This document shows, in pieces, positions 54,001 to 60,000 of a stretch of 64,000 nt of DNA. The position numbers were made by a program. Location: the NCBI RefSeq assembly GCF_003991155.1, contig NZ_CP031293.1; one strand, written 5' to 3'. Origin of the DNA: Escherichia coli. Its GTDB lineage: Bacteria > Pseudomonadota > Gammaproteobacteria > Enterobacterales > Enterobacteriaceae. Each line of letters starts with the position of its first letter. Positions within the stretch are counted from its first letter, which is position 1.

Positions 54001-57000
54001 TTACCGATTGGCGATATCGCCGCTCACGCCGCGCGACCTGAGCAAGTTATTGGCCTGCATTTCTTCAGTCCGGTGGAAAAAATGCCGCTGGTGGAGATTA
54101 TTCCTCATGCGAGTACATCGGCGCAAACCATCGCCACCACGGTAAAACTGGCGAAAAAACAGGGCAAAACGCCAATTGTCGTGCGTGACAAAGCCGGGTT
54201 TTACGTCAATCGCATCTTAGCGCCTTACATCAATGAAGCTATCCGCATGTTGACCGAAGGCGAGCGTATTGAGCATATCGATGCCGCGCTGGTGAAATTT
54301 GGTTTTCCGGTAGGCCCAATCCAACTTTTGGATGAGGTAGGAATCGACACCGGGACTAAAATTATTCCTGTACTGGAAGCCGCTTATGGAGAACGTTTTA
54401 GCGCGCCTGCAAATGTTGTTTCTTCAATTTTGAACGACGATCGCAAAGGCAGAAAAAATGGTCGGGGTTTCTATCTTTATGGTCAGAAAGGGCGTAAAAG
54501 CAAAAAACAGGTCGATCCCGCCATTTACCCGCTCATTGGCGCACAAGGGCAGGGGCGACTCTCCGCACCGCAGGTTGCTGAACGGTGTGTGATGTTGATG
54601 CTGAATGAAGCAGTACGTTGTCTGGACGAGCAGGTTATCCGTAGCGTACGTGACGGGGATATTGGCGCGGTATTTGGCATTGGTTTTCCGCCATTTCTCG
54701 GTGGACCGTTCCGCTATATCGATTCTCTCGGCGCAGGCGAAGTGGTTGCAATAATGCAACGACTGGCCACGCAGTATGGTTCCCGTTTTACCCCTTGCGA
54801 GCGTTTAGTCGAGATGAGCAAGCGTGGGGAAAGTTTTTGGAAAACAACTGCAACTGACCTGCAATAAGAAGGTCAAAGCTATATGAATCCGCGCTGAATG
54901 GCGGAGTGTTGCTCAAAATGTAAACGCATATTGACTATACTTACGCCATTGAGGTAAAAAACAGCGTTTCATTCGGTGAATGGATAAGGCACAATGCCGG
55001 CCACCGTTTTCTTTCTCTGGTTTCAGATGAAAGAAAACGGGCGAATCTGGTTAACAAAAGCGGTGCAATATGCAAGTTTTTATCATGCGTCACGGCGACG
55101 CAGCCCTCGATGCCGCCAGTGATTCGGTTCGTCCTCTGACTACTAACGGTTGTGACGAATCTCGCCTGATGGCGAACTGGCTGAAAGGTCAAAAAGTGGA
55201 AATCGAACGCGTTCTGGTGAGCCCGTTCCTGCGAGCCGAGCAAACACTTGAAGAAGTAGGGGATTGTCTGAACCTGCCTTCCAGTGCAGAAGTTCTGCCG
55301 GAGTTAACACCCTGCGGCGATGTTGGTCTGGTCAGTGCCTATTTGCAGGCGTTGACCAATGAAGGTGTTGCTTCGGTACTGGTAATCTCCCACTTACCCT
55401 TAGTCGGGTATCTGGTTGCCGAGTTATGTCCGGGCGAAACGCCGCCTATGTTTACCACGTCAGCGATTGCCAGCGTAACGCTTGATGAAAGCGGAAAAGG
55501 CCAATTCAACTGGCAAATGAGCCCTTGTAATTTGAAGATGGCAAAAGCAATTTAAGCAATCAATGCCCGGTTACGTGCGCGTACACCGGGCAGTTTCTCC
55601 GTCATACAATCATCCTTTTTCTTGTCTAAATGTTGTTAATATTTAACAACTCTCGATAGTTATTATATTTTCCCATTATTGAATCCCGTAATAAAATAAA
55701 GAAGATAATGGTTTTGTGTCTTGAATATATATTTATTGATTTAATTAATATTAAATTTTAGCAATAAATGATGGTAAGGTCATTATAATTTTTTTTAGTG
55801 TGCTTTATAAGCAATTCATTTTTGTTGATTATAATAGTTTGTTTTTTTGTTGATAATTCGCATGTTTTTTTGTTGGAAAGTGGTGAAAGTATTTTGTAGA
55901 TGTATTAATTAATAAAATCTACATAAAGTGTTTAAGTATTACTAAATTGAGTTTTTTTATAGATAAGACCAACATACAGACACACCAGAGAATACTTGTT
56001 TACATTCTATGATTATATTGGAGTGTATATGTTCAATGGCTAACTATAAATATCGGGCATAATATATATTAATTTTATGTCAGGTGTTTATATTATAACT
56101 CTTAATGATTTAAGGACAAATAATGAGTAAGTTTGCCAAAACAGCCATTGCTGCGGCGATGGTCATGGGCGCAGTTGTTTCCAGTTCTGCATTTGCAGCA
56201 GGCAACAACGGTACCGCGCGCTTCTACGGCACCATTGAAGACTCCCCGTGCTCTATCGTTCCAGACGATCACAAACTGGAAGTCGATATGGGTGACATCG
56301 GTGCGGCTAAACTGACCGGCGGTGGCACCACCACACCGAAAGATTTCCAGATCCGTTTACAGGACTGCGTGTTTACCACTGAAACAAGCATGAAGACCAC
56401 GTTCACCGGTACTAACTACGCGGGGCCAGCCAACACGGATAACTATGCGTTATTCAACATTGACACCGGTGTTGCCATGAACCACGTGAGCCTGGTAATC
56501 GGCGATACCCATGGCAAAGGTTATAAAGTGGGCCAAGAAATTGTTCAGCCAATCGTGATGGATGCTTCAACCAGCAAAGGTAAAGACAAGCAAACGCTGA
56601 ACTTTAAAGCCTGGCTGGTGGGTGAAACCGAAGCGCCGGATCTCGGCCAGTTCGAAACCCTGACCACATTCCAGATTACCTATCTCTGATGTGACAACCC
56701 CACAGCGTTCTGCTGTGGGGTTTTTCAACGCGCAACGGATTTACGACTGTTTCACAAACGGATATGTGTATGCCTAATCACTCAAATTTTCGGCTGCGGG
56801 GAATCGCCTGCTATATTGCGCTGGCAATCTCTGGTGGATCAGTCAATGCATGGGCTGATGATTCCATTCAATTTGACTCCCGTTTCCTTGAGTTAAAGGG
56901 TGACACGAAAATTGATCTCGGTAAGTTTTCAAAAAAAGGGTATGTCGACGCGGGTAAATATAATTTACGTGTATTTATAAATAAACAACCCCTTTCTGAT

Positions 57001-60000
57001 GAATACGACATTAACTGGTACGTCTCTGAAAATGATCCAACAAAAACGTATGCCTGCCTGACACCTGAGTTAGTGGCGGCGCTGGGGCTGAAAGAAGGGA
57101 TAGCAAAAAGCCTGCAGTGGACGCACAACGATGAATGCCTTAAACCGGGGCAATTAGATGGGATGGAAGTCGAGAATGATTTAAGCCAGTCGGCGTTGCT
57201 GCTGACAGTGCCACAGGCTTATCTCGAATATACCAGCAGCGACTGGGACCCACCCTCACGCTGGGACGACGGTATTCCTGGCCTGATTGCCGACTACAGC
57301 CTCAATGCGCAAACCCGTCATCAGGAGCAGGGTGGCGAGGACTCACATGATATCAGCGGCAACGGTACCGTTGGGGCGAATCTGGGGGCATGGCGTTTCC
57401 GCGCAGACTGGCAAAGTGATTATCAGCACACCCGCAGCAACGATGACGACGATGACAGCAGTAACAGTACAACGAGCAAAAACTGGGACTGGAGCCGTTA
57501 TTACGCCTGGCGGGCCTTACCCTCTTTAAAAGCGAAGCTGTCGCTGGGTGAAGATTATCTCAACTCCGATATTTTCGACGGCTTTAACTATATTGGCAGC
57601 AGCGTCAGCACCGATGACCAGATGCTGCCGCCCAACCTGCGCGGCTATGCGCCGGATGTCTCCGGCGTGGCGCACAGCAGTGCAAAAGTCACCATTAGCC
57701 AGATGGGCCGGGTACTTTACGAAACCCAGGTTCCCGCCGGGCCATTCCGCATTCAGGATATCGGCGACTCCGTCTCCGGCACACTGCACGTCCGCGTTGA
57801 AGAACAGAATGGTCAGGTGCAGGAATATGACGTTACCACCGCATCTATGCCATTCCTCACGCGCCAGGGGCAGGTGCGTTACAAAGTGATGATGGGGCGT
57901 CCGGAAGACTGGAACCACAGGACCGAAGGCGGCTTTTTCTCCGGTGGAGAAGCGTCATGGGGGGTAGCAGATGGCTGGTCGCTCTACGGTGGCGCGCTGG
58001 CAGATGAACACTACCAGTCGGCGGCGATGGGGGTGGGGCGCGACCTCGCACAGTTTGGCGCGCTGGCGTTCGATGTGACTCACTCGCACGTCAACCTGGA
58101 GCATGACAGCGCATACGGCAAAGGAAAACTGGACGGCAACTCCTTTCGCGTGAGCTATGCCAAAGACTTTGACGAACTCAACAGCCGCGTCACCTTTGCA
58201 GGCTACCGTTTTTCTGAAAAGAACTTCATGACCATGAGCGAGTATCTGGACGCGAACCAGTCGGACATGGCGCGGACCGGTAACGACAAAGAGATGTATA
58301 CGATCACCTATAACCAGAACTTTGCCGCTGCGGGTGTCTCGATCTATCTCAACTACTCCCATCGTACTTACTGGGATCGCCCGGAACAGACAAACTATAA
58401 CCTGATGTTTTCCCACTATTTTAATATGGGGAGCATTCGCAACATGAGCATCTCGGTGACCGGCTATCGCTACGAATATGACGATAATGCGGATAAGGGG
58501 ATGTACCTCAGCATGAGCATTCCGTGGAGCGACAGCAGCACCGTGACCTACAACGGCTCCTACGGCAGTGGGTCGGACAGCAGCCAGGTCGGTTACTTTA
58601 AGCGCGTTGATGACGCAACGCACTACCAGGTTAACGTCGGTACCAGCGAACAGCACGGCAGCGTGGATGGTTATCTGAGCCATGACGGTTCGCTGGCGAA
58701 GGTTGATCTCAGCGCCAACTACCATGAAGGGGAATACCGTTCGGCGGGGATCGCCTTACAGGGCGGGGCAACGCTGACCGCGCATGGCGGCGCGCTGCAT
58801 CGCACTCAAAGCATGGGCGGCACGCGCCTGCTGATTGACGCCGACGGGATTGCTGACGTGCCGGTCGAAAGCAACGGCGCGCCGGTGTACACCAATATGT
58901 TTGGCAAGGCGGTGGTCGCCGATATTAACAACTACTACCGCAATCAGGCGTATATCGATTTAAACAACTTGCCGGAAGATGCGGAAGCCACCCAGTCGGT
59001 GGTGCAGGCAACCCTGACGGAAGGCGCAATCGGCTATCGTAAATTCAAAGTGATCAGCGGGCAAAAAGCGATGGCGGTACTGCGGTTGCGTGACGGTAGC
59101 TACCCGCCGTTTGGCGCGGAAGTGAAAAACGACGAGCAGCAGCAGGTTGGCATTGTGGATGATGAAGGCAATGTCTATCTGGCGGGAGTCAATGCGGGTG
59201 AGCATATGACGGTGTTCTGGGAAGGCAGCGCACAATGCGAGATCGTATTGCCGAAGCCGCTACCTGCCGATCTGTTCAGCGGCCTGTTGTTGCCGTGTGA
59301 ACAAAAGGGAACGGCAGCCCCTGATTCTTCAGCGCCAGAAATTAAGCCTGTTATTCAGGACCAGACGCGGCAAGTCACACCAACGGAAGCGCCGACGTCA
59401 ATTTCAGCTACTCAATAATCTGATTAAGGAACGATCAATGTCTTATAAATTATCCAGTTCAATGGTCGTCAGCACGGCGCTGGCGGCACTGCTTACCACC
59501 GCCAGCCTGACGGCGCATGCATCGGTCACCCCGGATCGCACCCGTCTGGTGTTTAACGAAAGCGATAAATCGATCAGCGTGACCCTGCGCAACAACAACG
59601 AAAAGCTGCCTTACCTGGCGCAAAGCTGGCTGGAAGATGAGAAGGGCAACAAAATCACCTCGCCGCTGGCGGTACTGCCGCCGGTGCAGCGTATTGACGC
59701 CATGATGAACGGCCAGGTGAAGATTCAGGCGCTGCCGGACATTCACACGCTGCCGTCCGATCGCGAAAGCCTGTTCTATTACAACGTGCGTGAGATCCCG
59801 CCAAAGACCGGGAAAGCCAACACTCTGCAAATTGCCCTGCAAACGCGCATCAAGCTGTTCTGGCGACCAAAGGCGCTGGAGAAGATCGACATGAGAAAAC
59901 CGTGGCAGTTTAAGGTGACGCTCACGCGCAGCGGCCAGGACTATACCGTCAATAACCCGACGCCATACCACGTCATCATCAGCGATGCCAGCACACAGAA

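What the first reader, a model, noticed from the sequence alone, without database searches (positions are those of the whole stretch)
56764..59418. yfc fimbrial usher gene is a single intact ORF
The usher gene reads through as 884 codons, with the chaperone gene starting 20 bp later. In K-12 the corresponding usher is, as I recall, split and annotated as a pseudogene. With the major subunit, chaperone, three minor subunits and yfcO all intact, this strain may make functional Yfc fimbriae.
Basis: partly seen in the sequence, partly recalled or inferred. Interest (0 to 1): 0.35.

Follow-up and report, generated by a model that had tools for sequence, protein, structure and literature searches.

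The report
Ordinary intact Yfc fimbrial usher gene
The fimbrial usher gene is intact as described, but that is the normal state in E. coli: only the K-12 laboratory lineage carries the single stop-codon mutation that breaks it, so the finding is correct but ordinary.

Summary
Window 56764-59418 (+) is one open frame with no internal stop. The likelier start is the ATG at 56770, giving 882 codons. The chaperone gene starts 20 bp after the usher's last base, at 59438. All seven yfc genes (yfcV-U-S-R-Q-P-O) are intact between sixA and smrB.

The recollection about K-12 is also right. K-12 yfcU (b4661) is annotated as a pseudogene. Its only lesion is an amber TAG at codon 579, where the window has TAC (58504-58506).

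The implied significance fails. The K-12 61-mer carrying TAG occurs in only 363 of 5,426 complete genomes, and seven of eight sampled are evident laboratory K-12 strains. A natural isolate differing from K-12 yfcU by that single base, and REL606, have intact ushers. Wurpel et al. 2013 already list yfc as a core fimbrial cluster that is intact across E. coli.

The window's operon is also not the K-12 allele. Its proteins are 47-77% identical to K-12's, while flanking genes are 97-100% identical. It is the phylogroup F/B2-type allele recognised by the uropathogen yfcV marker primers, and it is base-for-base identical across 6.4 kb in more than 30 complete genomes.

Verdict: already known, low interest.

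The parts
55556..56122 (+). AT-rich intergenic region between sixA and yfcV, the presumed promoter and regulatory region
   Evidence: GC is 23.5-30% in 400-nt windows. There is no blastn similarity to the K-12 counterpart, although sixA aligns at 97% up to 55551. Promoter-like hits are not enriched over shuffles. No convincing invertible element was found. H-NS silencing is an inference from the base composition and from Korea 2010 as cited by others.
56123..56689 (+). yfcV, major fimbrial subunit (188 aa)
   Evidence: Pfam Fimbrial, E=1.7e-13. It has a signal peptide and ends in ...ITYL. It is 72% identical to K-12 YfcV and 96% identical to B2 strain NC101. The published UPEC-marker yfcV primers match at 56388-56407 (2 mismatches) and 56659-56679 (0 mismatches).
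56696..56725 (+). Stem-loop plus T-run just after the yfcV stop, a probable intrinsic terminator or attenuator between the major-subunit and usher genes
   Evidence: An 11-bp perfect inverted repeat AACCCCACAGC/GCTGTGGGGTT with a 5-nt loop. Folding energy is -22.1 kcal/mol, z=-4.6, with 0 of 200 shuffles as good. It is conserved in the K-12 and O157 alleles with a compensatory C:G to T:A change. The attenuator role is inferred.
56770..59418 (+). yfcU, outer-membrane usher, intact (882 aa, or 884 aa if started at 56764)
   Evidence: Pfam PapC_N (residues 34-180), Usher (198-759, model positions 3-549 of 549, E=5e-185) and PapC_C (771-825). It aligns to full-length PapC 7lhg_C residues 2-806 of 809, E=1.5e-211. 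dN/dS is 0.085 against K-12 and 0.039 against CE10. Its 90% identity cluster has 3,733 member sequences at 882 aa.
58504..58506 (+). Codon 579, TAC (Tyr), the position where K-12 has the amber TAG
59438..60190 (+). yfcS, periplasmic chaperone (250 aa)
   Evidence: Pfam PapD_N (E=1.7e-36) and PapD_C (E=1.8e-11). An AAGGA ribosome-binding site lies upstream.
60207..60710 (+). yfcR, minor fimbrial subunit (167 aa)
   Evidence: Pfam Fimbrial. It ends in ...VDYQ. It is 59% identical to K-12.
60707..61186 (+). yfcQ, minor fimbrial subunit (159 aa)
   Evidence: Pfam Fimbrial. It overlaps yfcR by 4 nt. It is 57% identical to K-12.
61183..61713 (+). yfcP, minor fimbrial subunit (176 aa)
   Evidence: Pfam Fimbrial, E=6e-21. 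It is 71% identical to K-12.
61715..62554 (+). yfcO, putative tip adhesin (279 aa, DUF2544, StfH/YfcO family)
   Evidence: Pfam DUF2544, E=2.9e-72. NCBI names it 'StfH/YfcO family fimbrial adhesin'. It is 47% identical to K-12, 85.8% to CE10 and 51% to NC101. The divergence is concentrated in the N-terminal ~175 residues, while the C-terminal ~100 residues are nearly identical.

Best explanation
This is the ordinary, intact usher gene (yfcU) of the E. coli core chaperone-usher operon yfcVUSRQPO, in its phylogroup F/B2-type allelic form.

Inferred mechanism, from the PapC/FimD paradigm. YfcS chaperones the subunits in the periplasm. The usher is a 24-strand barrel with a plug, an N-terminal recruiting domain and C-terminal domains. 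It is inserted in the outer membrane and polymerises subunits by donor-strand exchange. The order would be YfcO adhesin at the tip, then the minor subunits YfcP/Q/R, then a YfcV rod. A conserved stem-loop after yfcV probably lowers read-through, so that the major subunit is made in excess over the usher. The very AT-rich upstream region is the likely target of H-NS silencing, so the operon is probably cryptic under laboratory conditions.

The K-12 pseudogene is the exception. It arose by a single C-to-G change that turns Tyr579 (TAC) into amber TAG within the K-12 lineage.

Shown here: gene integrity, domain completeness, synteny, the nature and rarity of the K-12 lesion, and purifying selection on the usher.

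Inferred only: assembly order, attenuation, H-NS silencing, and actual production of fimbriae.
For: - ORF intact.
- Annotated as a normal CDS, with all neighbours intact, in an identical genome.
- Complete domain set. End-to-end match to PapC.
- K-12 yfcU is a pseudogene with a single TAG at codon 579.
- One-base difference from an intact wild allele. REL606 is intact.
- The TAG-bearing 61-mer is in 363 of 5,426 genomes, and seven of eight sampled are evident laboratory K-12 strains.
- Usher alleles of at least 95% identity are found in 1,223 genomes (window type) and 3,090 genomes (K-12 type), with a further O157-type class.
- Purifying selection, dN/dS 0.04-0.09.
- The operon is at or near 100% identity in 34 genomes.
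- Wurpel 2013 lists Yfc as a core-associated pi-clade fimbria, 'intact in all genomes'.
- YfcU has been used as an assembled usher substrate in TAM studies.
- Yfc expression is reported to raise adherence to bladder cells (Korea 2010, as cited in PMC6033998).
Against: - No expression or assembly data exist for this strain, so function is inferred from sequence alone.
- The promoter region is unalignable with K-12's, so K-12 regulatory findings may not transfer.
- The adhesin domain differs strongly even from related alleles, so receptor and phenotype are unknown.
- Roughly one in seven sampled window-type ushers elsewhere carry IS1 insertions or truncations. This shows the locus is dispensable in some lineages.
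Confidence: 0.9

Rival explanations
1. The operon is intact but cryptic. It is transcriptionally silenced (for example by H-NS), so the strain makes no Yfc fimbriae under ordinary conditions. Gene integrity alone predicts nothing about phenotype. This qualifies the best explanation more than it competes with it.
For: The upstream region has 23-30% GC. Yad, Yeh and Yfc are described as 'functional but cryptic' in Wurpel 2013, citing Korea 2010.
Against: yfcV transcripts were detected and differentially expressed in clinical STEC isolates. Strong purifying selection on the usher implies it is used somewhere in nature.
Confidence: 0.6
2. An intact usher is a distinguishing, lineage-specific gain of function relative to typical E. 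coli. This is the reading implied by the first reader.
For: K-12 yfcU is indeed a pseudogene.
Against: The K-12 TAG is found in only 363 of 5,426 genomes, which by sampling are nearly all laboratory K-12 strains. Wild strains one base away from K-12, and REL606, are intact. O157, CE10 and NC101 are all annotated as intact. The literature says yfc is intact across genomes.
Confidence: 0.02
3. The open frame is preserved but the protein is functionally decayed by missense changes. It would be a pseudogene in the making.
For: It is only 77% identical to K-12 YfcU. The locus is disrupted by IS elements in some other genomes.
Against: dN/dS is 0.039-0.085. All three Pfam domains match at full length with very strong scores. 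The alignment to PapC is end to end. The NTD and CTD cysteine pairs are present in both the window and the K-12 sequence.
Confidence: 0.05
4. The intact reading frame is a sequencing or assembly artefact.
For: None.
Against: There are 0 mismatches over 13.2 kb against an independent complete genome. The operon is identical in more than 30 complete genomes from different laboratories and hosts.
Confidence: 0.01

Closest known systems
E. coli K-12 yfcU (b4661) and the K-12 yfcOPQRSUV operon
   Same: Same chromosomal locus (sixA ... smrB), same gene order, same domain architecture and nearly the same lengths.
   Different: K-12 has TAG at codon 579 where the window has TAC. The proteins are only 47-77% identical, and synonymous divergence is saturated (dS 1.2-1.7, against 0.15 in the adjacent sixA). 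The promoter regions are unalignable. K-12 lacks the Septu pair next to yfcO.
Yfc fimbriae of extraintestinal pathogenic E. coli (the yfcV 'UPEC marker' allele, e.g. CFT073 c2883, NC101, CE10)
   Same: The usher is 97-99% identical. YfcV is 95-96% identical. The marker primers bind.
   Different: The forward primer has 2 mismatches in the window. The YfcO adhesin is only 51% identical to NC101 and 86% to CE10, with an N-terminal domain of a different type.
PapC, the usher of P pili (PDB 7lhg, 6cd2, 2vqi, 3fip)
   Same: Full-length homology, E=1.5e-211, covering the N-terminal domain, the barrel with its plug and the C-terminal domains. Yfc is listed in the same pi clade as P in Wurpel Table S2.
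   Different: It is a different operon, with no papI/papB-type regulators seen upstream, a different DUF2544 adhesin instead of PapG, and a ~40-residue C-terminal tail beyond the PapC alignment.
Salmonella Stf fimbriae (StfC usher) and the E. albertii and E. fergusonii orthologues
   Same: Same family. NCBI names the adhesin 'StfH/YfcO family'.
   Different: Salmonella ushers are 54-61% identical. E. albertii ushers are 79-81% and E. fergusonii 76% identical. The other-species Escherichia orthologues are therefore as close to the window as the K-12 allele is (78%).

Membership tests
PapC/FimD-type outer-membrane usher (Pfam PF00577 family) | N-terminal signal peptide and PapC_N subunit-recruiting domain | tested here: met
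   PF13954, E=3.8e-36, residues 34-180. A hydrophobic leader ends in ...NAWA|DD.
PapC/FimD-type outer-membrane usher (Pfam PF00577 family) | Complete central barrel and plug region | tested here: met
   PF00577 model positions 3-549 of 549, E=5.4e-185. It aligns to the PapC barrel structures 2vqi and 3fip.
PapC/FimD-type outer-membrane usher (Pfam PF00577 family) | C-terminal domain(s) | tested here: met
   PF13953, E=9e-14, residues 771-825. It aligns to the PapC CTD structures 3l48 and 2kt6 and to full-length PapC through residue 806 of 809.
PapC/FimD-type outer-membrane usher (Pfam PF00577 family) | Operon context with a PapD-like chaperone and pilin subunits | tested here: met
   PapD_N and PapD_C chaperone, four Fimbrial-domain subunits and a DUF2544 adhesin.
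PapC/FimD-type outer-membrane usher (Pfam PF00577 family) | Actually assembles fimbriae on the cell surface | not testable with these tools
   This needs expression, electron microscopy and immunoblotting.
E. coli Yfc fimbrial operon (core-associated, pi clade; Wurpel 2013) | Fixed chromosomal position between sixA and smrB, with gene order V-U-S-R-Q-P-O | tested here: met
E. coli Yfc fimbrial operon (core-associated, pi clade; Wurpel 2013) | Usher groups with Yfc and pi-clade ushers | tested here: met
   The best non-self clusters are Escherichia YfcU-type ushers at 76-81% identity. PapC is far closer than FimD (E=1e-211 against 1e-81). Yfc is listed under pi in Wurpel Table S2. No phylogenetic tree was built here.
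K-12-type yfcU pseudogene | Amber TAG at codon 579 | tested here: not met
   The window has TAC at 58504-58506.
UPEC-marker yfcV allele (Spurbeck 2012 PCR target) | Binding sites for both published primers, giving a ~292-bp amplicon | tested here: inconclusive
   The reverse primer matches exactly. The forward primer has 2 mismatches near its 5' end. The amplicon would span 56388-56679, 292 bp. Amplification is probable but was not tested. The primers were confirmed in PMC11984961.
Septu defence system (neighbour, noticed in passing) | Adjacent PtuA ATPase and PtuB nuclease genes | tested here: met
   PADLOC PtuA E=2.8e-154 and PtuB E=2.1e-89. The genes overlap and lie on the minus strand.

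The most novel reading that the evidence does not exclude
The yfc locus is held in E. coli as several allelic cassettes about as old as the genus. Synonymous divergence between the window and K-12 cassettes is saturated (dS 1.2-1.7), against 0.15 in the adjacent sixA. E. albertii and E. fergusonii ushers are as close to the window as K-12's is. This lineage also carries its own YfcO receptor-binding domain, 51% identical to B2 strains and 47% to K-12. The most novel reading the evidence allows is that these cassettes are maintained by balancing or diversifying selection and give different receptor specificities and regulation. On that reading, the window's variant would be a distinct adhesin type not captured by the 'yfcV-positive' label.
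Probability: 0.3. Interest if true: 0.3.

Novelty: already known. Interest (0 to 1): 0.08.

Why it matters
It matters little. An intact yfc usher is what almost every natural E. coli has, and the operon here is already annotated as intact in RefSeq genomes of the same clone.

The useful outcomes are corrections:
- The K-12 'pseudogene' is one amber codon private to the laboratory lineage, so K-12 is the poor reference here.
- The yfc operon of this strain is a deeply diverged allele with a different promoter region and adhesin domain. K-12 results on Yfc regulation or binding should not be transferred to it without testing.

Tried and rejected
- I looked for a phase-variable invertible promoter upstream of yfcV. 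Only low-complexity AT-rich inverted repeats were found, and there is no adjacent recombinase. Rejected.
- I scanned 55300-63400 against Rfam. The only hit was a chance sub-threshold miRNA match (24.9 bits against a gathering score of 76). Nothing there.
- The promoter and terminator consensus scan gave no enrichment over shuffles, and it missed the yfcV hairpin. My guess, not checked, is that its stem search absorbs part of the T-run. I characterised the hairpin by folding and alignment instead.
- I tried to read Korea 2010, Spurbeck 2011 and Spurbeck 2012 directly. None is held. Their content is cited only through other papers.
- I considered a frameshift or IS insertion as the K-12 lesion. 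Rejected: it is a single in-frame TAG.
- I assumed the window equals NZ_CP029747 throughout. That was wrong. It differs by a 1,200-bp deletion and two SNPs, all outside the finding.
- Several loci fetched in parallel calls did not reach the Python sandbox. I worked around this by refetching or by using the comparison tools.
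Full report
OBSERVATION

The window holds an ORF at 56764..59418 (+) of 884 codons with no internal stop.

A second ATG at 56770 is the better start. The only Shine-Dalgarno-like GGA (56760-56762) lies 7 nt before it and just 1 nt before the first ATG. NCBI's annotation of a genome identical over this region starts there, giving 882 aa. The K-12 protein begins at the equivalent MPDHS.

The usher stop ends at 59418. The chaperone ATG is at 59438 behind an AAGGA, so 'starts 20 bp later' is right.

All seven genes read through and carry the expected Pfam domains:

| Gene | Coordinates | Pfam domains |
|---|---|---|
| yfcV | 56123-56689 | Fimbrial |
| yfcU | 56770-59418 | PapC_N, Usher, PapC_C |
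| yfcS | 59438-60190 | PapD_N, PapD_C |
| yfcR | 60207-60710 | Fimbrial |
| yfcQ | 60707-61186 | Fimbrial |
| yfcP | 61183-61713 | Fimbrial |
| yfcO | 61715-62554 | DUF2544 |

The usher matches the full Usher model (positions 3-549 of 549, E=5e-185). It aligns end to end with full-length PapC (7lhg_C residues 2-806 of 809, E=1.5e-211).

The region has 0 mismatches over 13.2 kb against E. coli 2016C-3878. The 6.4-kb operon is at or near 100% identity in 34 complete genomes from humans, cattle, poultry, dogs and wastewater. A sequencing error is therefore excluded.

THE K-12 COMPARISON

The locus is syntenic with K-12 yfcOPQRSUV, between sixA and smrB. K-12 yfcU (b4661) is flagged as a pseudogene.

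Translating it shows a single in-frame stop. It is an amber TAG at codon 579, aligned to Tyr579 (TAC, window 58504-58506). It falls in the second half of the barrel, before the C-terminal domains. A product truncated there would lack about a third of the protein.

A dog wound isolate differs from K-12 yfcU at exactly one of 2,646 bases, nt 1737, which reads TAC instead of TAG. Its gene is annotated as intact. REL606 is also intact.

A 61-nt probe centred on the TAG matches exactly in 363 of 5,426 genomes. The eight evenly sampled exact matches are:
- seven evident laboratory K-12 strains: ER1709, MG1655, a Dam/Dcm strain, JM109 and three further laboratory strains;
- one strain labelled as a human isolate.

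The lesion is therefore a private point mutation of the K-12 lineage.

HOW COMMON IS AN INTACT USHER?

Usher alleles at least 95% identical to the window occur in 1,223 genomes. Alleles at least 95% identical to K-12 occur in 3,090 genomes. A third, O157-type class is 83% identical to K-12 and 77% to the window. Together these cover nearly the whole species, always on the chromosome and almost always once per genome.

In evenly spaced samples most entries are plain 'fimbrial biogenesis outer membrane usher protein' CDSs. About 4 of 28 window-type rows showed IS1 insertions or truncation.

The protein database agrees. The window-type 90% identity cluster has 3,733 member sequences at 882 aa, with a few hundred truncated forms beside it.

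Wurpel et al. 2013 already classify Yfc as a core-associated pi-clade fimbria, present in all 36 genomes they studied and 'the only cluster intact in all genomes'.

WHAT THIS ALLELE IS

The window's cassette is far from K-12's:

| Protein | Identity to K-12 |
|---|---|
| YfcV | 72% |
| YfcU | 77% |
| YfcS | 74% |
| YfcR | 59% |
| YfcQ | 57% |
| YfcP | 71% |
| YfcO | 47% |
| Flanking YfcZ, FadI, FadJ, SixA | 97-100% |

Synonymous divergence in the yfc genes is saturated (dS 1.2-1.7, or uncomputable), against 0.15 in sixA.

The switch is sharp:
- Identity is 97% up to 55551.
- The AT-rich intergenic region shows no detectable similarity at all.
- Identity is about 72% from 56085 onward.

E. albertii (79-81%) and E. 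fergusonii (76%) ushers are as close to the window as K-12's (78%). Salmonella Stf-type ushers are 54-61% identical.

Within its own class:
- The usher is 99.4% identical to that of CE10, a neonatal meningitis isolate that I recall (unverified) to be phylogroup F.
- YfcV is 96% identical to B2 strain NC101.
- The published UPEC-marker yfcV primers match the window with 2 and 0 mismatches, and they match CE10 and NC101 exactly.
- The adhesin YfcO is much more variable, at 86% to CE10 and 51% to NC101. The variation lies in the N-terminal ~175 residues, while the C-terminal ~100 residues are nearly invariant.
- dN/dS is 0.04-0.09 for the usher, but 0.4-0.7 for YfcV, YfcR and YfcO against CE10.

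This is the usual pattern of a conserved assembly machine with variable surface parts.

MECHANISM

This section is inferred from the PapC/FimD paradigm. The best-explanation section describes the assembly pathway (chaperone, usher, donor-strand exchange, tip-to-rod order). The sequence-level support is as follows.

The subunits end in the typical ...Y-L or ...Y-Q motifs.

An 11-bp perfect stem with a 5-nt loop and a T-run lies just after the yfcV stop (56696-56725). It folds at -22.1 kcal/mol, z=-4.6. It is kept in all three divergent alleles with one compensatory C:G to T:A change. I read it as an attenuator or terminator that sets the ratio of major subunit to usher.

The upstream 0.5 kb has 23-30% GC. 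This fits H-NS silencing and the 'cryptic but functional' description of Yfc in the literature.

YfcU has been used as an assembled usher in TAM studies. [quoted passage not shown] None of this was tested for this strain.

VERDICT

The K-12 recollection is confirmed and made precise: one amber codon, not a split by a frameshift or an insertion. The significance is not supported, because this is the normal state of a known core operon that is already annotated as intact. Novelty: already known. Interest: low.

SIDE OBSERVATIONS

1. A Septu defence pair (PtuB at 62603-63226, PtuA from 63192 past the window end) sits between yfcO and smrB. It is absent from K-12, O157 and NC101 and present in CE10.
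2. The window lacks exactly 1,200 bp found in its closest genome. The missing stretch holds the upstream region and the first ~370 codons of ypdA. The junction is at 11176|11177 and occurs in none of 5,426 complete genomes.
3. Wurpel's statement that yfc is intact in all genomes overlooks the K-12 amber codon, even though their own table lists b4661.

Noticed in passing
window 62603-63226 (-) and 63192-64000 (-), the latter running off the window end: A two-gene Septu anti-phage defence system lies between yfcO and smrB: PtuB (207 aa, PADLOC E=2e-89) and PtuA (a 404-aa ATPase, E=3e-154, cut by the window end). It is absent at this site in K-12, O157:H7 and NC101, and present in CE10.
   Followed up: partly
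window 11176|11177 (remnant ORF 10590-11234, - strand): Relative to the otherwise near-identical genome NZ_CP029747 (2 SNPs in ~49 kb), the window lacks exactly 1,200 bp. The missing stretch covers 89 bp upstream of ypdA and its first ~370 codons (ypdA encodes a sensor kinase). Only 1 nt of microhomology is present at the junction. The junction is found in none of 5,426 complete E. coli genomes. It could be a real strain-specific deletion or an assembly or editing artefact; the round number is suspicious.
   Followed up: partly
window 61715-62554 (yfcO): The putative tip adhesin has a hypervariable N-terminal ~175 residues and a nearly invariant C-terminal ~100 residues. Overall it is 51% identical to B2 strain NC101, 86% to CE10 and 47% to K-12, even though the ushers of the window, CE10 and NC101 are 97-99% identical. 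This suggests swapping of the receptor-binding domain within the 'yfcV-positive' class.
   Followed up: partly
window 55552-62589: The whole yfc cassette, including its promoter region, is a sharply bounded block of genus-level divergence from K-12. Its dS is 1.2-1.7 or saturated, against 0.15 in the adjacent sixA. The intergenic region is unalignable. E. albertii and E. fergusonii ushers are as close to the window as K-12's is.
   Followed up: partly
window 56696-56725: A conserved stem-loop plus T-run lies between the major-subunit and usher genes. It is kept in three alleles that are ~72-83% identical to each other, with one compensatory base-pair change. It is a likely attenuator.
   Followed up: partly
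K-12 MG1655 NC_000913.3 2453265-2453267 (L002 8266-8268): The K-12 lesion is an amber codon. Amber-suppressor laboratory strains (supE, supF) might therefore read through it. This may bear on Korea 2010's report (as cited) that K-12 Yfc is 'functional'. Wurpel 2013 states that yfc is intact in all genomes, although their table lists the pseudogene tag b4661.
   Followed up: no
window 33467-45386: From the annotation of the collinear reference genome, this stretch holds a 7.9-kb phase-variable autotransporter adhesin gene upaE (36377-44296, +). Nearby are the tyrosine invertase genes ipuA (34785-35414) and ipuB (33467-34036) and a tRNA-Arg gene (45312-45386). This is a known UPEC-type island.
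   Followed up: no
other genomes (H141, H142; H16, H17, H27, H51): The same operon is interrupted by an IS3-family element in two sheep isolates of the same clone. The usher carries IS1 insertions in several genomes of both the window-type and K-12-type alleles. The locus is a recurrent IS target, or is dispensable, in some lineages.
   Followed up: no
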